Source: Candidatus Nanoanaerosalina archaeon (GTDB taxonomy: Archaea > Nanohalarchaeota > Nanosalinia > Nanosalinales > Nanoanaerosalinaceae). From it: DNA of 50,651 nucleotides. Shown here piece after piece: positions 22,119 through 28,979 of the stretch (positions are counted from its first letter, which is position 1; the number at the start of each line of letters is the position of its first letter). The notes under the pieces were generated by a model. It had not been told where the DNA came from. It ran no database searches and was given only the letters and a program-made list of their open reading frames with translations. The translations under genes and the position numbers were made by a program. The stretch is from the NCBI GenBank assembly GCA_022729275.1, contig JALDAH010000001.1, positions 1 to 50,651 on the forward strand, in the 5' to 3' direction.

Positions 22119-23015
22119 ATGGTCAAATGTTCGGAATGTGGGGAAACTATATCGATACCCTTCAAGTGCAAGTTCTGTGGGGAGAAGCTGTGTTCAAAAC
22201 ACAGGTTACCAGAGAACCATGGCTGTGAAAAAATGAAACCGTATTTGGAGCAGCAGAAGAACAGAAAAATAATATATAATGCGGTTCAGGAGGAAAAAGA
22301 ATACAGGGAGAAAAATATGAGAGGAAAAGGTAGTATCATTGGAAGAATAAAGAAAAAAATAGATAGTTATAGATCTCCTAGGAGTACATCTTATAGAAGA
22401 AGTCCTACATCAGAAGCTTTAAGATACGCTTTTCCTGACATGGCAACATTCACATTGCTTGGAATGATTTTTCTGGGATACCTATTCCAGCTATTTGTAC
22501 CTGGTTTCAACGAGCTATTTCAGCTGGTTCCTGAGCTTGCCTTCACAGAACCATGGAGACTAATATCTCCAATATTCCTTCATGGTAATCCCACACATCT
22601 CTTTGTAAACTCGATAGTTCTCTTCTTCTTTGGTTCGGAACTGGAAAAGAGAATAGGAACATGGAGGTTTGTAAAAATGTTCTTTTTATCAGGCATAATA
22701 GCATCAATTGGTTACGCTATTTACATGCTGGAGATAACAGGTCTGAACACACCAGCAGTAGGAGCTTCAGGGGCTTTATATGGTGTATTCGCTGCACTTG
22801 CCATTATAGCACCTGAGATAAGAGTTTTAGCATTTTTTATAATACCTATGGGTATAAGAACGGCTCTTGTAGTATTTGCTTTATTCGACTTATTCCTTTT
22901 AACCCAGCAAACTCCTATCGCAAGTATAGCGCATCTTACAGGTCTTGTAGTAGGTCTTTACTACGGTTACAAGGTTAGTAAAAGTGGTGATTACAGACGT
23001 AGCTGGGTAATTTGA
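22119..23015 (+). CDS. Rhomboid intramembrane serine protease with an N-terminal AN1-type zinc finger
   Basis: CSECGETISIPFKCKFCGEKLCSKHRLPENHGC fits C-x2-C-x9-C-x2-C-x4-C-x2-H-x5-H-x-C exactly. Rhomboid motifs HGNPTHLFVN, GASGALYG (catalytic Ser) and AHLTG (catalytic His). Confidence 0.85.
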   Translation: MVKCSECGETISIPFKCKFCGEKLCSKHRLPENHGCEKMKPYLEQQKNRKIIYNAVQEEKEYREKNMRGKGSIIGRIKKKIDSYRSPRSTSYRRSPTSEALRYAFPDMATFTLLGMIFLGYLFQLFVPGFNELFQLVPELAFTEPWRLISPIFLHGNPTHLFVNSIVLFFFGSELEKRIGTWRFVKMFFLSGIIASIGYAIYMLEITGLNTPAVGASGALYGVFAALAIIAPEIRVLAFFIIPMGIRTALVVFALFDLFLLTQQTPIASIAHLTGLVVGLYYGYKVSKSGDYRRSWVI

Positions 23016-23591
23016 TTATTGACCGGATTTTTCTGTCTTGACCCATACCTCATTGAACATCTCAGTTCTTCCATAGATAATATAAAAAGGTTTTTCCTGG
23101 AAATCAACAGTTTCAAAACTTTCATCAAATAACAGACCTATATTCTCTGTCTCTTGATCTAGATCAAGAACAACGGTTTCGGTATACTCTCCGGAGTCAA
23201 AAAATATCGATTCTTCAACAGAACCATCAACAGTAATGTTTACAAAATCAATACCATCCCAGTAATTACCAACAACAATATCATGGTCACCGTTCTCGTT
23301 TTCTATACCTGTAATTAAAACATAATTAGCTCCGATACCCTTACCGGAGTTTACTGTTACCAAAAAATTCATGTAGCCCTCTATGTTTTCCTCAACATTA
23401 CTTGAAGTGTAACTTTGACTCAAACTGTTATCTATAAGATAAGGTATCTCCTCAATCCCCTTTTCAAAGAACTCTCTCGTATGAGGATCAGAATCTTCTG
23501 TTAAAAAAGCTCTTCCTTGTAATCCAACGACTACAAGTATCATTATAGCAAGCAATATAAGACCTATGGTGAAAAACTGGCCCTTCCTCAT
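23016..23591 (-). CDS. Class-III-signal-peptide (archaeal type IV pilin-like) protein
   Basis: MRKG|QFFTIGLILLAIMILVVVGL: a basic n-region, a KG-Q prepilin-peptidase-type site, and a roughly 20-aa hydrophobic helix. 4-nt overlap with the upstream gene. Confidence 0.55.
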   Translation of the reverse strand: MRKGQFFTIGLILLAIMILVVVGLQGRAFLTEDSDPHTREFFEKGIEEIPYLIDNSLSQSYTSSNVEENIEGYMNFLVTVNSGKGIGANYVLITGIENENGDHDIVVGNYWDGIDFVNITVDGSVEESIFFDSGEYTETVVLDLDQETENIGLLFDESFETVDFQEKPFYIIYGRTEMFNEVWVKTEKSGQ

Positions 23592-24106
23592 CGGTATCCT
23601 ACCTCCAAATTGACCTTCCCATCAGTTTCGCCCCTGTTTCTAAACCGAAGATTGGAGAATCCCTGCCCAAAATTTATTCTCTCTCTTCCATCCGGATCCG
23701 TGAGATTTATTTTTTCATCTGAGTAATCAAGGGAAAGTTTAATGTTAACTCCATCAGTTGAAGACATATTTACAGGTCCAATACGAGTATGAGCGCCTGC
23801 AGAGACAACTTCCGCTTCTGTTTCAATCGTGTAGTAAAAAGTATCATTGGTGGGTTCGAAAGTGTATCTACCATAGTCCGAAGTGATAGTTAAATCCGTC
23901 ATCGTTCCTTCACCATATGAGACAGTTTCTCTAATCTTTGAATCGATGTTCAGCAGAGTGTCTTGAGCACTCTGTATTGATGCGACCTGTCTTGATCTCT
24001 CCAACAGAGGCATACCCATAGTAAGAACAATAATAACACCCGAAATAATTAAAAAAACAACAAGCATATAGGAAACCAGTGGAGATACAGCTTTTCTTCT
24101 CACCAT
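23588..24106 (-). CDS. Class-III-signal-peptide (archaeal type IV pilin-like) protein
   Basis: MVRRKA|VSPLVSYMLVVFLIISGVIIVL resembles the archaeal pilin/archaellin N-terminal motif (R-x-AVSPVI...). It overlaps both neighbours. Confidence 0.6.
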   Translation of the reverse strand: MVRRKAVSPLVSYMLVVFLIISGVIIVLTMGMPLLERSRQVASIQSAQDTLLNIDSKIRETVSYGEGTMTDLTITSDYGRYTFEPTNDTFYYTIETEAEVVSAGAHTRIGPVNMSSTDGVNIKLSLDYSDEKINLTDPDGRERINFGQGFSNLRFRNRGETDGKVNLEVGYR

Positions 24107-24522
24107 ATATAGACGTACACCACCGAATAAGTAACTTCGTTTCCGTTTTCCAACACGTCTTCATCAACGGTAACTACATAACCAGCACTGACCTTAAAAT
24201 CTTCTGGATAGTCTCCACTTAAATCAAAATCAGTTTCTCCCTCCTTGTCCATATAAATTATTTCTACGGCTGTGTTTGTAGACACATATTTGTTGATTTC
24301 ATCGTGTATGGATTCCGGATCTCTTTCAACAATTTTCTCTCTCAAAAGACCCTTTGAATCCATAGATTCCAGAGTTTCCATTGTGATTCTGTAAGAAATT
24401 TCTTGTGTAACCGGCTGACTAACAAGAGATGGAAGTATATTTATTAAGAAAACGAAAAAAATAGTTGAAGCGATCACCGCCTCAAGAGTTGATACAAATC
24501 CCTTTCTCTCAACCATAGACAT
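24100..24522 (-). CDS. Class-III-signal-peptide (archaeal type IV pilin-like) protein
   Basis: MSMVERKG|FVSTLEAVIASTIFFVFLINIL has a KG-F site with Glu in the early mature region. It starts 26 nt after the rad50 stop. Confidence 0.55.
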   Translation of the reverse strand: MSMVERKGFVSTLEAVIASTIFFVFLINILPSLVSQPVTQEISYRITMETLESMDSKGLLREKIVERDPESIHDEINKYVSTNTAVEIIYMDKEGETDFDLSGDYPEDFKVSAGYVVTVDEDVLENGNEVTYSVVYVYIW

Positions 24523-24548
24523 TTATTATCCATGATGGAGGTTAAAGT

Positions 24549-26837
24549 TTACGGTCTATGCTGCTCCATGTAAATTTCTTCTGAAACCGATATTCCTGAT
24601 CCCTCTTTTGAAACCCTGTAAAGATAAGATGTAACTGAATCCTCTAGATCTTTGTCATGGGTGATCAAAAGAAGCTGGTCCACTATAATCGATATATCCT
24701 CCCTAAGAGTATCCGACAAATCTGAAACAGTTCTTTCGTCAAGATTATGGGTTGGTTCATCCAACATCAAAACATTAAATCTTTTTCCAAGTACGGCTGA
24801 AAGCGCTAATCTCATGGTCAAAGCGGCTGAATGTCTTTCTCCACCCGAAACTTCACCCTCTACAGGTACCTTATTACCTCTTGAATCACAGATTTTCAGT
24901 ATATAATCCTCCTCTACACTGATCTCGATATCAGAATAATAATCATAGGGATATATATTGGCCCATATATCCTGCATAACGTCATTTAGATTCTCTATGA
25001 ATTGTTTCCTCAGTTGTTCCTGAGCTTCTTTAAGCTTTTTCCTAAAAGACACGAAAAAATCCTCTAAAATCCTGTATCTCTCAATATCCTCCTCAATATC
25101 ATCTATCAAAGACTTCCTCTCTTTCAGTTCTTCAACACGTTTTTTATACTGTTCAAGGACTTCTTTCTTTGATTCTTTCTCCTTTTCAACTACTCTTATA
25201 TCAGATTTAACATCATTGAATTTTTTCTCGATATTTTTGAATCGATCAATATCAAAATCGTTTTCCTCCCTACTTTTCTCAATAAATGTTAGGGCTTTCC
25301 TTCTCTCTTCTAACTTCTTCTTGAATTTGAAGACATCCTTCAATTTTTTCATCCTTTCCTTTTCCTCTTTCAGCTTTTCTCTGTTCAAATCCTTTAGCTT
25401 CTCTTCAAGTTCTTCTATTTTCCCTGATAAAACTTTCTTCTCAGATCTTTCTTCCCTTAGTTTTTTCTTTTTATCACTGATTTTTTCCTCAACATCCCCA
25501 AGTTTCAAGATATCGGCCCTCCTATTATTCAATTTCTGAAGTTCCTCAGATATCTCTTCAATCTTCTCTCCTATACTTTCTTTTCTTGATTCTAAATTTT
25601 TCTTCTCCTCTCTGAAGGATATGATTAACTCTTCTCTGTGTTCATCATCCAGATCTCTGTTGCAGGTCGGGCATTTTCCCTCAGCATCTGATAGTTGCTC
25701 GATGGAATCATCCAGGTTTTGTTTTTTACTTTTTAATCCGGATATCTTATCTTTATTATCATCCAACTTTTTCTTTTTCTTTTCTATAGATTTCTCAACG
25801 TCTTCCAGTTTTTCAAACTCTTCTTTATCTTCATTTAACTCTTCAATCTTTTTTTCAATTTTTCCAATGTTTTTATCCTTATATCCTACTTTGTTCTTCT
25901 TTTTGGAAAGTCTCTCCTTTACTTTTTCTGCCTTTGATATTTTTTCATCGATCTCAGAGATTTTTTTATCTATTTTATCTTTATCTTCAATATTTATCTC
26001 TTCCAATTCCTCCTCTAATTCGTCCAGATTCTCCTTTAAAGAATTAATCTCGCCTTTCACTTCCCCTATTTTTCTTTCCAATTTTTCGTGTTTCTTTTTG
26101 GCTTTTTTTTCTGATTCATACTTTTCATTTAAAACTTGCTTTTTTTCCGAGAGTTTTTTCCTCCTATCCTCAAGTTCTTCTATCTTATCCTCAATTTTTC
26201 CTCTTTTTTCCATAATTTTCTCAAAATCTTTCTCCTCAAAGCTCTCTTTGTTGTCCTTCAAATCACTCTCCTTGTATTCACGCTTGTTTCTCACAGAATT
26301 TTTAAGTTTCACAAGAGATTTGCGTGCTTTTTCAAATCTGTCCAACCCGAGAAGTTTATCTATTTTTTCTTTCCTTTCACCTGGTCGCATATCAAGAAAA
26401 AAATCCAGGGAGTTCTGTTCAGAAAAAACAATGGTGGTGAAAAGATCGAAGTTAAGACCTATAATTTCCTCGATTTTTTCAGATACCTCAGTTGCCTGAG
26501 GACCGGCAATCACATCACCTTCCTTTCTAAGAATCGATTTTGTGGTCCCTCTACCTCTCTTTATTATTCTCTCAACAGAATATGTATCCTCTATCTCAAA
26601 AACTATTTTTACTTTGGCCGAATCCTCTTGATTTGGAGATCTTCTAATTACATCATCTATATTTATCCTTCTCTCCTTTATAGATGGTAAAGTTCCGTAA
26701 AGACCAAAAACTATGGATTCAAGTACCGATGATTTTCCGGATCCCATCTCTCCCACCAGGGCATTTACCCCTCCATCAAAAACTAATTCTTCCTCCCTGT
26801 ATGATTTCCAGTTCTCCAGACCTACTTTTTTTATCAT
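24549..26837 (-). CDS. rad50: Rad50 DNA double-strand-break repair ATPase (short coiled-coil form)
   Basis: Walker A GEMGSGKSS, long K/E coiled coil with zinc hook CPTC, signature SGGERHSAAL, Walker B LMLDEPTHNLD. Starts 4 nt after mre11. Confidence 0.9.
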   Translation of the reverse strand: MIKKVGLENWKSYREEELVFDGGVNALVGEMGSGKSSVLESIVFGLYGTLPSIKERRINIDDVIRRSPNQEDSAKVKIVFEIEDTYSVERIIKRGRGTTKSILRKEGDVIAGPQATEVSEKIEEIIGLNFDLFTTIVFSEQNSLDFFLDMRPGERKEKIDKLLGLDRFEKARKSLVKLKNSVRNKREYKESDLKDNKESFEEKDFEKIMEKRGKIEDKIEELEDRRKKLSEKKQVLNEKYESEKKAKKKHEKLERKIGEVKGEINSLKENLDELEEELEEINIEDKDKIDKKISEIDEKISKAEKVKERLSKKKNKVGYKDKNIGKIEKKIEELNEDKEEFEKLEDVEKSIEKKKKKLDDNKDKISGLKSKKQNLDDSIEQLSDAEGKCPTCNRDLDDEHREELIISFREEKKNLESRKESIGEKIEEISEELQKLNNRRADILKLGDVEEKISDKKKKLREERSEKKVLSGKIEELEEKLKDLNREKLKEEKERMKKLKDVFKFKKKLEERRKALTFIEKSREENDFDIDRFKNIEKKFNDVKSDIRVVEKEKESKKEVLEQYKKRVEELKERKSLIDDIEEDIERYRILEDFFVSFRKKLKEAQEQLRKQFIENLNDVMQDIWANIYPYDYYSDIEISVEEDYILKICDSRGNKVPVEGEVSGGERHSAALTMRLALSAVLGKRFNVLMLDEPTHNLDERTVSDLSDTLREDISIIVDQLLLITHDKDLEDSVTSYLYRVSKEGSGISVSEEIYMEQHRP

Positions 26838-26841
26838 TTAT

Positions 26842-28089
26842 TCAACCTCCAAAATAATCAAGTACGGTCTTTCCATCCTTCTTAACATCTTTCTCCTCGT
26901 TTTTTTCTTCATTTATTTTCTCCATGAAATCTTTAAGTTCTTCCAGGTTTTTTTCCTCAAACCTTTCAAGTACGGATTTTGTTTCTTCCTCACAGAGCTT
27001 CTCAAAAATTTCTCTTATACCATTAAAACTAAAATCCCTTGAAATATATCTGAAACCTAATTCATTAACCTTCTTTCCTGTATCAATACTCTTATCTGTA
27101 TCTTGAATCCCTTCTGTGTTATCACCTATCTTGATTATTGCGGAATCTATTTTTTCTCTTATCTCTTTATTACTAAAGGATGCTTCTGTTTTTCCCTTTA
27201 AAACAACCCTAACGAGAGGTTTCTTGTCTTTTTCTAATGATATATCTTCCACCTGTTCTATTAACTCATCCACTATCTCTCTGCCTTCCATTTCTGAGAC
27301 ATCAATTTCAAGGTGAAAAACGTCTCTAGGGGATTTTAATGGTTCAAAGCTGATATCTCTTTTTTCAGTATCTATAAAGATTATGCCCTTCTCTTCTTCA
27401 GCCTCTTTTTTCCTTACCTGTGTGGTTATGGTAGAACCTGGAAAAACGAGAGGCATCTCTCTGCTTTCAAAGTCAAGGTTTTTCCAGTGTATGTGCCCAT
27501 CTATAATGTAATCGAAACCATCTGGGATATCCGAAAGTGAAAGCCCCTTGTTTATTTTATCTGTATATACAAAATTCTCGATCGACTGGTGAAGCATCAG
27601 CACATTAATACCTTTTCTTGGTGTTGGACTCCAGTTTTTCAGTATCTCTGAAGCGTATCTTTCTGGTACACCTGACATACCAAAAATGTTAACCCTTTCA
27701 CCTTCTTTTTCAAGGGTGACATAATCGTTGTGAAGATGTATCAAAACTCCTGCCTCTTCCAACAGCTCTATAGGATTAACGTATTCGTTGCTCCTCCTCT
27801 CATGTGTGCCGTGTATTGCTATTACAGGTGTTTTATTATTTTTCCATCTATAATTTTTGATTCTTGCCGCATCATCTCTATCATCACCTAATAATTTGAA
27901 AATTTTGAATGCTTCCGAAAAAACTTCCTGGTTAGGTGTCTTAGAATCGAAAATATCACCTGGTAGGAGAACAGCATCTGCTTTTTTAGCCTTCTTAAAG
28001 GCTTCTCTTGCATTTTGGAAGCTGTCTTCATTTCTCTCAGAGTTCCACTTAAAACCAAAATGCGTGTCACTTACAACAGCTAATTTCAT
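26842..28089 (-). CDS. mre11: Mre11 nuclease
   Basis: Phosphoesterase motifs VVSDTHFG, LLPGDIFD, AIHGTHER, LMLHQS, DGHIHW. Confidence 0.9.
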   Translation of the reverse strand: MKLAVVSDTHFGFKWNSERNEDSFQNAREAFKKAKKADAVLLPGDIFDSKTPNQEVFSEAFKIFKLLGDDRDDAARIKNYRWKNNKTPVIAIHGTHERRSNEYVNPIELLEEAGVLIHLHNDYVTLEKEGERVNIFGMSGVPERYASEILKNWSPTPRKGINVLMLHQSIENFVYTDKINKGLSLSDIPDGFDYIIDGHIHWKNLDFESREMPLVFPGSTITTQVRKKEAEEEKGIIFIDTEKRDISFEPLKSPRDVFHLEIDVSEMEGREIVDELIEQVEDISLEKDKKPLVRVVLKGKTEASFSNKEIREKIDSAIIKIGDNTEGIQDTDKSIDTGKKVNELGFRYISRDFSFNGIREIFEKLCEEETKSVLERFEEKNLEELKDFMEKINEEKNEEKDVKKDGKTVLDYFGG

Positions 28090-28158
28090 TAAAACATTTT
28101 TTCGGAACCGAATCTTAAAAACGGTATAGAAAATAAGGAAAAAAGGGATTTTATGGAG

Positions 28159-28749
28159 TTAATCCATCATCCCGATTATTTCTCCCTTTTCAAGGTCTAT
28201 AGGATCTATTCCTGCAAGACTTCCCATGAACATTAGACCTGATCTCTTCGATACATACACATTAAATTCCTGGGTCTCTTGTTCATCCTCCAACAACATC
28301 GTCACAACAAATATATCCTCATAGGTCTCCTGATCTATGGAGATCACTGTAATATTTATGTCGTCATCTACATCTCCAATCTGCTGCACGATGTAATCCG
28401 TAACCATCTCATCGATTTCATTAAGAGTGAATTCTTCGGTCTCGACCATTTCAGCTGGATACATCACTATAAATGTAAACGCAAAACCTATAAGCATCCC
28501 TAATAAGATGTTAACGAAGGGTCGCTCCCAAGTGCTTATAGCTTCTTCATCAGAAACAGGTTCTTCTTCGAGTTCAACTTCTCTATCTTCGATTTTGTTT
28601 TGTATCCATTCCTTCAAAGTTTTTCTGTTTTTCCCTTCTTTTTCAGCTTCAAGTAACTCTTCCAGATCTATTTTTTCATCTTTTCCAACTTCTTGTTTTA
28701 CTTCAGAAATGGTTCCATCAAGGATTTCACCATAATTTTCATCTGTCAT
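28159..28749 (-). CDS. Acidic single-pass membrane protein (unknown function)
   Basis: Very acidic cytosolic N-terminus, one TM (FVNILLGMLIGFAFTFIVMY), and a small C-terminal ectodomain. Confidence 0.5.
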   Translation of the reverse strand: MTDENYGEILDGTISEVKQEVGKDEKIDLEELLEAEKEGKNRKTLKEWIQNKIEDREVELEEEPVSDEEAISTWERPFVNILLGMLIGFAFTFIVMYPAEMVETEEFTLNEIDEMVTDYIVQQIGDVDDDINITVISIDQETYEDIFVVTMLLEDEQETQEFNVYVSKRSGLMFMGSLAGIDPIDLEKGEIIGMMD

Positions 28750-28979
28750 CTTGACACCTAAACATTTATTAGGACTGATAGGTTAAAAAAATTAAGAAAG
28801 GTAAGGACTCGGGTTTTAAAAATGTTTATCACCTAAAAAGTTTTTAGGTGGATTGTTTTGAAGGGTGAATATGTTCCACGAAGTTGAAGAAAAACTCTTA
28901 GTTGGAAATCTATTTGTGAACTCCACTTTTTTCTTGAACAAAAATTTGTTCAGACAAAATTTCTACAGAAGTGATAGAT

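What the first reader, a model, noticed from the sequence alone, without database searches (positions are those of the whole stretch)
23016..28089. mre11-rad50 operon without herA/nurA that continues into three overlapping type-IV-pilin-like genes
In most archaea, mre11 and rad50 are clustered with the HerA helicase and NurA nuclease. Neither is here. Instead, 26 nt after the rad50 stop come three same-strand ORFs whose junctions overlap (24100-24106 and 23588-23591). Each begins with a class III signal peptide: MSMVERKG|FVSTLEAVIA..., MVRRKA|VSPLVSYMLVVFL..., MRKG|QFFTIGLILLAIMIL.... No pilus ATPase or platform gene (PilB/PilC-like) lies nearby.

Tight linkage of a DSB-repair machine with surface-filament or pseudopilin-like subunits recalls DNA-exchange and uptake systems, such as the Sulfolobus UV-induced pili and bacterial competence pseudopili. 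A host-dependent archaeon could plausibly couple DNA import to recombination. That functional link is speculative.
Basis: partly seen in the sequence, partly recalled or inferred. Interest (0 to 1): 0.6.

Follow-up and report, generated by a model that had tools for sequence, protein, structure and literature searches.

The report
Rad50 operon abutting pilin-like genes
In this tiny salt-loving symbiotic archaeon, a normal DNA-break-repair gene pair sits next to three pilus-subunit-like genes only because an evolutionarily recent genome rearrangement put them together, so it is two ordinary systems side by side and not a new DNA-uptake machine.

Summary
Intact mre11 and rad50 are followed on the minus strand by three overlapping ORFs (pA, pB, pC) with class III, prepilin-type signal peptides. 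There is no herA, nurA or pilus motor gene in the window.

The proposed functional link is not supported.
- **Lineage-restricted:** the rad50-pA junction occurs in 4 of 23 related nanohaloarchaeal genomes that have both genes, in one genus plus one neighbouring genus.
- **Ancestral order:** elsewhere the trio belongs to a four-gene module, p0-pA-pB-pC, usually lying between the tRNA endonuclease gene and rhomboid/glyRS. There, rad50 is followed by a convergent herA.
- **Breakpoint here:** p0 stayed behind with the endonuclease gene on contig C59. herA is on C13 and nurA on C7/C65.
- **Own promoter signal:** pA has the genome's typical leaderless-promoter signature, TTTAA at -30 and no Shine-Dalgarno. 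So does mre11. rad50, pB and pC have Shine-Dalgarno sites instead. Two transcription units are predicted.
- **Machinery elsewhere:** the genome encodes pilus ATPases, TadC platforms and two prepilin peptidases on other contigs. The full pilus locus on C70 carries a longer look-alike gene set.

The trio most likely encodes minor-pilin-like subunits assembled in trans. The scan noted the same arrangement before on another genome (e1-2221720). This is ordinary and of low interest.

The parts
26842..28089 (-). mre11 (415 aa), DSB-repair nuclease and first gene of the mre11-rad50 unit
   Evidence: Metallophos 3.9e-11; NCBIfam Mre11_Sulfo 4.7e-29, below its cut-off. Motifs DTH, GDIFD, GTHE, LHQ and GHIH are present.
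28115..28119 (-). TTTAA, predicted TATA box of mre11, 30 nt before its ATG (leaderless geometry)
   Evidence: Sequence; genome-wide TATA peak at -30 to -28.
24549..26837 (-). rad50 (762 aa), SMC-like ATPase with zinc hook, translationally coupled to mre11
   Evidence: NCBIfam Rad50 1.7e-65; Rad50_zn_hook 3.4e-9; AAA_23; SbcC_Walker_B. GGAGGT Shine-Dalgarno and no TATA upstream.
24542..24546 (-). TTTAA, predicted TATA box for a leaderless pA-pB-pC transcript, 30 nt before the ATG at 24516 and just after the rad50 stop
   Evidence: Sequence. TTTAAC is conserved at -30/-31 in G001 and G003. Genome statistics.
24100..24516 (-). pA (138 aa from the second ATG; the longest ORF starts at 24522): class III signal peptide protein, MVERKG|FVSTLEAVIAS..., weakly DUF7288-like
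   Evidence: Orthologs found in 30 of 41 related genomes.
23588..24106 (-). pB (172 aa): archaeal pilin-like protein, RRKA|VSPLVSY..., DUF7289-like, overlapping pA by 7 nt
   Evidence: DUF7289 hits in 7 of 7 orthologs, best 6.8e-10. AlphaFold model pLDDT 81.5 with helix 9-64 plus beta-sandwich. Paralogs on C31 and C70.
23016..23591 (-). pC (191 aa): class III signal peptide protein, MRKG|QFFTIGL..., in a widespread family without a Pfam name, overlapping pB by 4 nt
   Evidence: 192 clusters at 50% identity reach E<=1e-3. No Pfam family. The model is low-confidence.
22119..23015 (+). AN1-zinc-finger rhomboid protease, convergent with pC and abutting it tail to tail; the conserved syntenic neighbour of the pilin-like module
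   Evidence: Rhomboid 6.9e-34; zf-AN1 6e-11. Adjacent to pC in G001, G003, G004, G005, G006, G007, G008, G013, G017 and L050.

Best explanation
Two unrelated, individually ordinary gene sets lie side by side because of a lineage-specific genome rearrangement.

**Set 1: mre11-rad50.** This is an intact operon for DNA double-strand-break end processing. mre11 has a leaderless promoter and rad50 is coupled to it by a Shine-Dalgarno site.

**Set 2: pA-pB-pC.** These are three of the four subunits of a module of class III signal peptide proteins (p0-pA-pB-pC) conserved across the order. They are most likely transcribed from their own leaderless promoter, which sits at the rad50 stop codon.

**Inferred mechanism.**
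1. The proteins insert into the membrane.
2. One of the genome's two A24 prepilin peptidases cleaves them after K-G or K-A.
3. Together with p0, they form a minor-pilin-like complex that primes, caps or decorates a type IV pilus-like filament.
4. The filament is built in trans by the ATPase/TadC machinery encoded on other contigs, chiefly the C70 locus, which has its own longer p0'-pA'-pC' and pB' look-alikes.

This would resemble the bacterial GspHIJK and PilVWX-FimU quartets.

**Ancestral layout.** It was [EndA > p0 > pA > pB > pC > < rhomboid < glyRS] and [mre11 > rad50 > < herA]. A break between p0 and pA, and another between rad50 and herA, produced today's junction in genera g1 and g4.

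**Shown:** gene identities, distribution, synteny and the promoter motif.
**Inferred:** transcription units, signal peptide cleavage, filament incorporation and the role of the complex.
For: **Synteny**
- rad50 and pA are adjacent only in G000, G001, G003 (genus g1) and G006 (g4). In 19 other genomes with both genes they lie on different contigs or 65-866 kb apart.
- A fourth class III gene, p0, overlaps the start of pA in G007, G013, G010 and metagenome contig L050. It follows the tRNA endonuclease gene there.
- The module is also present in g2, g3, f3 and f4 genomes.
- In G000, p0 sits at C59:29041-30270 between EndA and thrRS. The same holds in G001, G002 and G003. In G006, p0 also stands without pA.

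**herA and nurA**
- The herA ortholog (G000 C13:4185-5693) lies convergent just beyond rad50 in G007, G011, G019, G020, G023, G026, G029, G030, G033, G034 and G037.
- nurA is present in G000, split over contig ends C7 and C65.

**Promoter**
- Genome-wide, TTTA[AT] peaks at -30 to -28 before first genes.
- TATA with no Shine-Dalgarno occurs in 22% of first genes and 1.5% of tightly coupled genes. pA and mre11 show this signature; rad50, pB and pC show Shine-Dalgarno without TATA.
- The TTTAAC is conserved in G001 and G003.

**Pilin nature**
- Class III N-termini are present on all three.
- pB matches DUF7289 in 7 of 7 orthologs, with a confident lollipop-shaped model.
- pA weakly matches DUF7288. 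p0 and the C70 p0' both weakly match DUF7287.
- Peptidase_A24 is present twice. T2SSE ATPases are on C70, C51 and C74. T2SSF/TadC is on C70 and C19 above the cut-off, with sub-threshold matches on C74 and C80.
- The C70 locus carries p0'-pA'-pC' in the same order, with matching N-terminal motifs.
Against: - There is no obvious terminator in the 32-nt spacer, so read-through from rad50 into pA is not excluded.
- The promoter call rests on one 5-nt motif plus the absence of a Shine-Dalgarno site.
- Homology of pA, pC and p0 to their long C70 counterparts is weak. E-values are 0.023, 0.0019 and not significant, and the matches cover N-termini only.
- All Pfam DUF728x scores for the window's own proteins are below gathering cut-offs.
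- The pC model is unreliable, with pLDDT 55.
- The pB model has no significant match to solved pilins or archaellins, only generic Ig-like folds.
- A minor-pilin priming or tip role is an analogy with bacteria and has not been shown for any archaeal homolog of these families.
Confidence: 0.72

Rival explanations
1. This is a functional super-operon. After the rearrangement, the trio is co-transcribed with mre11-rad50 and forms a pilus or pseudopilus that brings in or exchanges DNA. That would couple DNA import to recombination, as with Sulfolobus Ups pili or bacterial competence pseudopili.
For: - The genes are on the same strand with only a 26-32 nt spacer and no recognisable terminator between rad50 and pA.
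- The junction is retained in four independently assembled genomes of two genera.
- Published hypotheses propose that DPANN archaea import DNA via pili (PMC9563170).
Against: - The junction is missing in 19 of 23 relatives that have both genes.
- The trio is older than the junction and is normally led by p0 behind the tRNA endonuclease gene.
- pA has its own leaderless promoter signature and lacks the Shine-Dalgarno site that coupled genes have in this genome.
- No ComEC-type channel was found in the 86%-complete genome.
- No DNA-binding domain was detected in pA, pB or pC.
Confidence: 0.07
2. The three proteins are processed by the prepilin peptidase but do not enter a filament. They would act as membrane-anchored or short pseudopilus-like surface proteins, for example a bindosome-like platform, an envelope or S-layer anchor, or a host-contact complex. 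Their conserved neighbour, the rhomboid protease, might be involved.
For: - The module is always encoded away from ATPase and TadC genes in families f1, f4 and f5, and abuts the AN1-rhomboid gene tail to tail in ten genomes or contigs.
- Archaeal class III signal peptides are known on non-pilin surface proteins such as sugar-binding proteins (PMC13705601).
- Ectodomains are small and acidic, with pI 4.1-5.1.
Against: - pB belongs to a pilin-type family (DUF7289, with a weak Pilin_N hit) and is modelled as a long helix plus beta-sandwich.
- A look-alike gene set sits inside the bona fide pilus locus on C70.
- Convergent orientation with the rhomboid gene argues for inherited synteny and against co-expression.
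Confidence: 0.18
3. The junction is an assembly chimera, or the small ORFs are not real genes.
For: The genome is a fragmented metagenome-assembled genome with 82 contigs, 86% complete.
Against: - The same junction is present in three other independent assemblies (NHA22, NHA20, DAL-9Gt).
- All three ORFs have orthologs with conserved length and motifs across the order.
Confidence: 0.01

Closest known systems
Archaeal type IV pilus (T4F) pilin sets encoded apart from their ATPase/TadC module (Makarova, Koonin & Albers 2016, PMC4858521; Haloferax volcanii PilA pilins used in trans by PilB3-C3)
   Same: [quoted passage not shown]
- The ATPase, TadC and prepilin peptidase are encoded elsewhere in the genome.
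- The ectodomain is Ig-like and all-beta (pB model).
- A MinD-type ATPase lies near the ancestral locus in relatives.
   Different: - The window's proteins score below the Pfam cut-offs.
- pC's family has no Pfam name.
- No experimental evidence for assembly exists.
- In this lineage the module is split, with p0 on another contig.
Pfam DUF7287 / DUF7288 / DUF7289 (uncharacterised archaeal families; all three ring above cut-off in the Haloferax volcanii control genome)
   Same: p0, pA and pB hit these three consecutively numbered families in gene order. pB orthologs reach 6.8e-10, and several carry a precomputed PF23960 assignment.
   Different: - For p0 and pA the matches are short, N-terminal only and sub-threshold (14-19 bits against a 27-bit cut-off).
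- I could not inspect the haloarchaeal gene neighbourhood of these families.
Type IV pilus-like 'Locus 1' of cluster-2 DPANN archaea (Hamm et al. 2024, PMC11291902)
   Same: G000 contig C70 has a similar composition: a coiled-coil protein, thermosome/GroEL, PilA-type pilins, a CpaF-type ATPase and TadC genes. I matched it by gene content only. This is the likely assembly machinery for the trio.
   Different: The window's trio lies outside that locus and is not described in that paper. Its relation to the locus rests on weak paralogy with p0', pA', pB' and pC'.
Bacterial minor-pilin / pseudopilin quartets (GspH-I-J-K, FimU-PilV-W-X, ComGD-G) that prime filament assembly
   Same: There are four different, single-copy, translationally coupled prepilin-like genes, kept together across an order and distinct from the major pilins.
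   Different: There is no sequence or demonstrated structural homology. This is an analogy of function only, and it is untested.
Archaeal mre11-rad50-herA-nurA DSB end-resection cluster
   Same: Mre11 and Rad50 are intact. HerA and NurA orthologs are present in the genome. In many related nanohaloarchaea herA lies convergent next to rad50, and nurA lies next to herA in some.
   Different: In this genus the four genes are scattered over three places: C11, C13 and C7/C65. Mre11 motif III reads GTHE rather than the usual GNH[DE].
Sulfolobus Ups pili and bacterial competence pseudopili (DNA exchange or uptake filaments)
   Same: Both are type IV filament subunits encoded in a cell that also has recombination and repair genes.
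   Different: - There is no conserved linkage to repair genes.
- No dedicated ATPase or platform lies in the locus.
- No ComEC or ComEA was found.
- No homology to UpsA/B or ComG proteins was detected.

Membership tests
Archaeal class III signal peptide (type IV pilin-like) proteins | A short positively charged leader ending in [KR]-[GA], followed directly by a hydrophobic helix of about 20 residues | tested here: met
   pA MVERKG|FVSTLEAVIASTIFFVFLINI; pB MVRRKA|VSPLVSYMLVVFLIISGVII; pC MRKG|QFFTIGLILLAIMILVVVGL. The motif rule is my own approximation of FlaFind, not FlaFind itself.
Archaeal class III signal peptide (type IV pilin-like) proteins | A cognate prepilin peptidase (PibD/FlaK/EppA type, Peptidase_A24) encoded in the genome | tested here: met
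   PF01478 matches above the cut-off at C70:19527-19880 (1.6e-10) and C25:1927-2232 (1e-7).
Archaeal class III signal peptide (type IV pilin-like) proteins | An assembly ATPase (T2SSE/VirB11 family) and a TadC/PilC platform in the genome | tested here: met
   T2SSE above the cut-off on C70 (twice), C51, C74 and C64. T2SSF on C70 (three times) and C19 (twice). None is on the window's contig.
Archaeal class III signal peptide (type IV pilin-like) proteins | Pilin 'lollipop' fold: a long N-terminal helix carrying a beta-rich globular domain | tested here: inconclusive
   pB: pLDDT 81.5, helix 9-64 plus 10 strands, but no Foldseek PDB match at E<0.001. pC: pLDDT 55, unreliable.
Archaeal class III signal peptide (type IV pilin-like) proteins | Cleavage by the peptidase and incorporation into a filament | not testable with these tools
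   Needs biochemistry, proteomics or imaging.
Pfam DUF7289 (pB) / DUF7288 (pA) / DUF7287 (p0) | A score above the Pfam gathering cut-off (27 bits) | tested here: not met
   Window pB scores 19.1 bits and pA 14.5 bits. G000 p0 scores 17.5 bits. pB orthologs in relatives do better, with a best E of 6.8e-10 and PF23960 precomputed for 4 of 7. pB is therefore a divergent relative. For pA and p0 the family link is only a lead.
Mre11-Rad50 complex | Mre11 calcineurin-like phosphoesterase motifs I-V; Rad50 Walker A and B, signature motif and CxxC zinc hook | tested here: met
   Mre11: DTH, GDIFD, GTHE (variant of GNH[DE]), LHQ and GHIH; Metallophos 3.9e-11. Rad50: GEMGSGKS, CPTC hook (PF04423, 3.4e-9), SGGE and LMLDEPT.
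Archaeal mre11-rad50-herA-nurA gene cluster | herA and nurA adjacent to mre11-rad50 | tested here: not met
   In G000, herA is on C13 and nurA on C7/C65. herA lies next to rad50 in at least 11 related genomes.
DNA-uptake or DNA-exchange type IV filament (Ups-like or competence-like) | Conserved genetic linkage or co-regulation with DNA-processing genes | tested here: not met
   Linkage is found in only 4 of 23 genomes. An independent promoter signature is present. Co-regulation could not be tested.
DNA-uptake or DNA-exchange type IV filament (Ups-like or competence-like) | A membrane DNA channel (ComEC) or DNA receptor | tested here: not met
   PF03772 has no match in G000, which is 86% complete. 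ComEA and DNA-binding pilins were not searched.

The most novel reading that the evidence does not exclude
The p0-pA-pB-pC module, conserved across the order, is an archaeal counterpart of the bacterial four-minor-pilin priming and tip complex. In nanohaloarchaea it would form the host-contacting tip of the pilus. In genera g1 and g4, the rearrangement that placed pA-pB-pC behind rad50 lets read-through transcription tie expression of the tip complex to DNA-damage repair. That would give a primitive coupling of host or DNA contact with recombination.
Probability: 0.05. Interest if true: 0.6.

Novelty: new member of a known kind. Interest (0 to 1): 0.2.

Why it matters
The practical value is negative. 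An eye-catching adjacency between DNA-repair genes and pilin-like genes should not be read as a DNA-uptake system, because it is a breakpoint shared by two genera.

Two modest positives remain.
- **A conserved module.** It documents a four-gene module of class III signal peptide proteins (p0, pA, pB, pC) that is kept across Nanohaloarchaeota and always encoded away from the pilus motor. One member, pC, belongs to a populous family (192 clusters at 50% identity) that has no Pfam name. This module is a concrete candidate for the minor-pilin or tip complex of the pili that these symbionts are thought to use on their hosts.
- **A promoter rule.** In this genome, the position of a TTTAA box at -30 together with the absence of a Shine-Dalgarno site separates first genes from coupled genes. 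This is useful for reading operons in uncultivated nanohaloarchaea.

Tried and rejected
- **Word-based homolog searches.** They returned only close orthologs: pC gave 2 hits and the pB profile gave 7.
- **The search for related loci.** A 4-sequence alignment then gave 3 genome loci and 2 metagenome loci, one a fragment and one a distant paralog.
- **Solved structures by sequence.** Profile searches with pA, pB and pC found nothing significant. The best was 0.016 to an uncharacterised protein, and 0.18 to an archaeal flagellin for pB.
- **Foldseek.** The pB model matched only generic Ig-like domains at E>0.01. I did not search with the pC model because its pLDDT of 55 makes matches meaningless.
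- **Paralogy with the C70 set.** HMMs built from ortholog alignments did not detect the long C70 paralogs of pA, pC and p0 with default filters. With filters off, pA' and pC' were the top non-self hits, but only at E=0.023 and 0.0019. p0' was not detected. Paralogy of these three is therefore suggested, not shown.
- **Plasmid search.** tblastn of a pB ortholog against annotated plasmids, aimed at a haloarchaeal neighbourhood for DUF7289, found nothing.
- **Literature.** A search for DUF7287, DUF7288, DUF7289 and DUF7266 found no paper.
- **Bacterial promoter and terminator scan.** It was uninformative: 19 promoter-like sites against 18.9 expected.
- **Assembly chimera.** I considered and rejected this, because the junction recurs in four independent assemblies.


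Full report
**1. Observation**

The ORF list confirms five co-directional minus-strand genes.

| Gene | Coordinates | Length |
|---|---|---|
| mre11 | 26842-28089 | 415 aa |
| rad50 | 24549-26837 | 762 aa |
| pA | 24100-24522 | 140 aa |
| pB | 23588-24106 | 172 aa |
| pC | 23016-23591 | 191 aa |

- pA and pB overlap by 7 nt. pB and pC overlap by 4 nt. The spacer between rad50 and pA is 26 nt.
- Pfam and NCBIfam identify Mre11 (Metallophos; Mre11 models) and Rad50 (Rad50 equivalog models at 1.7e-65; zinc hook PF04423 at 3.4e-9).
- The catalytic and ATPase motifs are present.
- Each small protein begins with a short basic leader ending K-G or K-A, then about 20 hydrophobic residues.
- The closest ortholog, in G001, begins at the second methionine (MVERKG), and the alignment to the G003 ortholog (MSGRKG) also starts at residue 3. 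The true pA start is therefore probably 24516.
- The window is contig C11 of an 849-kb, 82-contig, 86%-complete genome.
- The nearest public relatives are nanohaloarchaeal MAGs: 'Ca. Nanohalarchaeota archaeon NHA22', 'Ca. Nanoanaerosalina halalkaliphila NHA20' and an Asbonarchaeaceae MAG.

**2. The 'missing' genes are elsewhere in the genome**

- **nurA.** NurA (PF09376) is present but split across two contig ends, C7:1-807 and C65:1-288. The two pieces share the peptide KRVKNFY.
- **herA.** The ortholog is C13:4185-5693 (502 aa, DUF87).
- **Pilus motor.** T2SSE ATPases lie on C70 (two), C51 and C74. TadC/T2SSF genes lie on C70 and C19 above the family cut-off, with sub-threshold matches on C74 and C80. 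Two A24 prepilin peptidases lie on C70 and C25.
- **The C70 locus.** It is a complete pilus locus: a coiled-coil protein, thermosome, two PilA-type pilins, a pB paralog, a small DUF7266-like pilin, an ATPase and two TadC genes. These are followed by three class III proteins whose N-termini mirror p0, pA and pC, in that order:
  - RKA|QISIDY (p0-like)
  - KKG|YIYAIEGIIAG (pA-like)
  - RKA|QFFIITVL (pC-like, with a LamG domain)
- By gene content, this matches 'Locus 1' described for cluster-2 DPANN archaea (PMC11291902).

**3. The junction is not conserved**

I searched 40 related genomes with rad50 and with a pA profile.

- Both genes were found in 23 genomes, counting G000.
- They are adjacent only in G000, G001 and G003 (genus g1) and in G006 (genus g4).
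- In the other 19 they lie on different contigs, or 65, 119 and 866 kb apart on the same contig.

Upstream of pA in G007, G013, G010 and an independent metagenome contig (L050) lies a fourth class III gene, p0. It overlaps the start of pA and is preceded by the tRNA-splicing endonuclease gene.

Arrangement of the module across the order (unless stated):

| Group | Arrangement |
|---|---|
| g5, f5 (G007, G013), contig L050 | EndA-p0-pA-pB-pC, then convergent rhomboid-glyRS |
| f2 (G010) | EndA-p0-pA-pB-pC, then a glycosyltransferase; no rhomboid |
| g2, g3 (G004, G008, G005) | p0-pA-pC, then convergent rhomboid-glyRS; EndA directly upstream in G004, one gene away in G005, not recognised in G008 |
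| f4 (G017) | pB-p0-pA-pC, then rhomboid |
| f3 (G026, G020) | p0-pA-pC-pB |
| g1 (G000, G001, G002, G003) | EndA-p0-thrRS, with pA-pB-pC elsewhere, behind rad50 in G000, G001 and G003 |
| g4 (G006) | p0 without pA; pA-pB-pC behind rad50 |

Conversely, herA lies convergent immediately beyond rad50 in at least 11 relatives. nurA lies next to herA in G019, G023 and G012.

The simplest history is one rearrangement, in the ancestor of g1 and g4, with breakpoints between p0|pA and between rad50|herA.

**4. Transcription units (inferred)**

In this genome TTTA[AT] peaks sharply 30-28 nt before the ATG of genes that head a transcription unit: 24, 23 and 25 counts against a background of about 5. This indicates frequent leaderless mRNAs.

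Frequency of 'TATA at -32 to -27 and no Shine-Dalgarno' by gene class:

| Gene class | Frequency |
|---|---|
| First genes | 22% |
| Genes at most 10 nt behind a same-strand gene | 1.5% |
| Genes 11-45 nt behind a same-strand gene | 21% |

- pA (from 24516) and mre11 both carry TTTAA exactly at -30 and have no Shine-Dalgarno site.
- rad50, pB and pC have GGAGGT, GGTGGTG and GGAGGT respectively, and no TATA.
- The TTTAAC element is conserved at -30/-31 in G001 and G003, although the neighbouring spacer bases differ.

I therefore predict two units, mre11-rad50 and pA-pB-pC. No terminator is evident in the spacer, so some read-through is possible.

**5. What the trio is**

- **pB.** It belongs to a large pilin-like paralog family.
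  - All seven orthologs hit DUF7289, best 6.8e-10.
  - There are paralogs on C31 (1.4e-21) and C70 (3.1e-15).
  - The AlphaFold model (pLDDT 81.5, pTM 0.70) has a 56-residue N-terminal helix and a beta-sandwich.
  - Foldseek finds only generic Ig-like folds.
- **pA.** It weakly hits DUF7288. Its profile detects the N-termini of 557-1626-aa proteins in the pilus loci of relatives, at 2.6e-11 to 8.4e-4.
- **p0.** p0 and the C70 p0' both weakly hit DUF7287.
- **The three DUFs.** All three ring above the cut-off in the Haloferax volcanii control genome.
- **pC.** It has no Pfam family, but its profile retrieves 192 clusters at 50% identity, mostly 175-205 aa. They share the N-terminus [KR]KGQFF[IL][IL]G and an E-[FI]-P-x-A-x-N motif. 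A few long members carry LamG or PKD domains, like the C70 pC'.
- **General properties.** The ectodomains are acidic (pI 4.1-5.1) and free of cysteine.

**6. Mechanism proposed**

The four proteins are distinct, single-copy and translationally coupled. They are kept together across an order and are separate from the PilA-type major pilins. By analogy with bacterial minor-pilin and pseudopilin quartets, I propose three steps:

1. The A24 peptidases cleave them.
2. They form a minor-pilin complex.
3. That complex primes, caps or decorates the filament built by the C70-type machinery.

This is inference. A non-filament surface role is the main alternative. Archaeal pilin sets used in trans by separately encoded ATPase/TadC modules are well described (PMC4858521).

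**7. Comparison and verdict**

Nothing here departs from known kinds.

- mre11-rad50 is standard, apart from a GTHE variant of motif III.
- The trio are new, sub-threshold members of known or nameless archaeal pilin-like families.
- The DNA-uptake reading fails its testable criteria:
  - The linkage is not conserved.
  - pA has its own promoter signature.
  - No ComEC was found.
- The scan's first stage had already noted the same arrangement on another genome (e1-2221720). I confirmed it in G001.

Interest is low. The residual value lies in defining the conserved p0-pA-pB-pC module.

Noticed in passing
window 27799-27810 (Mre11 residues 94-97): Mre11 phosphoesterase motif III reads GTHE instead of the usual GNH[DE]. 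The Asn is a metal ligand in characterised Mre11 (from memory). The Thr is shared by the two other genus members examined, G001 and G003.
   Followed up: partly
G000 contig C31:2601-8489 (locus L013 covers part): A secreted 336-aa protein and a 437-aa pB paralog (class III N-terminus; pB profile 1.4e-21) lie directly upstream of a 426-aa DUF87/HerA_C-type ATPase and a Hef-like helicase. This is another pilin-like/HerA-like adjacency in the same genome. It resembles an earlier scan note, e1-2588954.
   Followed up: no
G000 contigs C7:1-807 and C65:1-288 (loci L001, L002): nurA is cut by an assembly gap; the two contig ends overlap in the peptide KRVKNFY. It is flanked by a LigD-phosphoesterase-like gene and a family-4 uracil-DNA glycosylase-like gene (my reading of the sequences), not by herA.
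   Followed up: partly
window 24100-24516 compared with orthologs in L039, L040, L041 and L050: pA of genus g1 is 132-138 aa. Orthologs elsewhere are 187-231 aa. The g1 proteins lack an internal or C-terminal beta-rich stretch of about 80 residues but keep the final V-Y-[IL]-W. The shortening coincides with the lineage in which p0 was separated.
   Followed up: partly
loci L053, L054, L058 (G004, G005, G008): In genera g2 and g3 the module reads p0-pA-pC with no pB between pA and pC. In family f4 (G017) a 630-aa pB precedes p0, and in f3 pB follows pC. pB is therefore the mobile member of the module.
   Followed up: partly
window 22119-23016: The AN1-zinc-finger rhomboid gene ends one base from the end of pC, so the stops abut at 23015/23016. 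This convergent adjacency is kept in ten genomes or contigs from three families (f1, f4, f5) plus contig L050. It is unclear whether this is more than inherited synteny.
   Followed up: partly
window 24457-24485, minus strand: A 9-bp hairpin followed by CTATTTTTTT was flagged as terminator-like. It lies inside the pA coding region, in the codons of the transmembrane helix. It could attenuate any read-through from rad50, but it may simply reflect Phe codons.
   Followed up: no
G000 contig C70:4767-7172 (locus L048): The 801-aa pC-like class III protein of the pilus locus carries Laminin_G_3 (1.8e-17) and DUF2341 domains. It is a plausible adhesin subunit.
   Followed up: no
window 28781-28790 and 24541-24547: The same heptamer, TTTAACC, occurs upstream of both pA and the 196-aa acidic membrane protein gene (28159-28749). 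In the latter it lies at about -38 and is combined with an AGGTG Shine-Dalgarno site.
   Followed up: no
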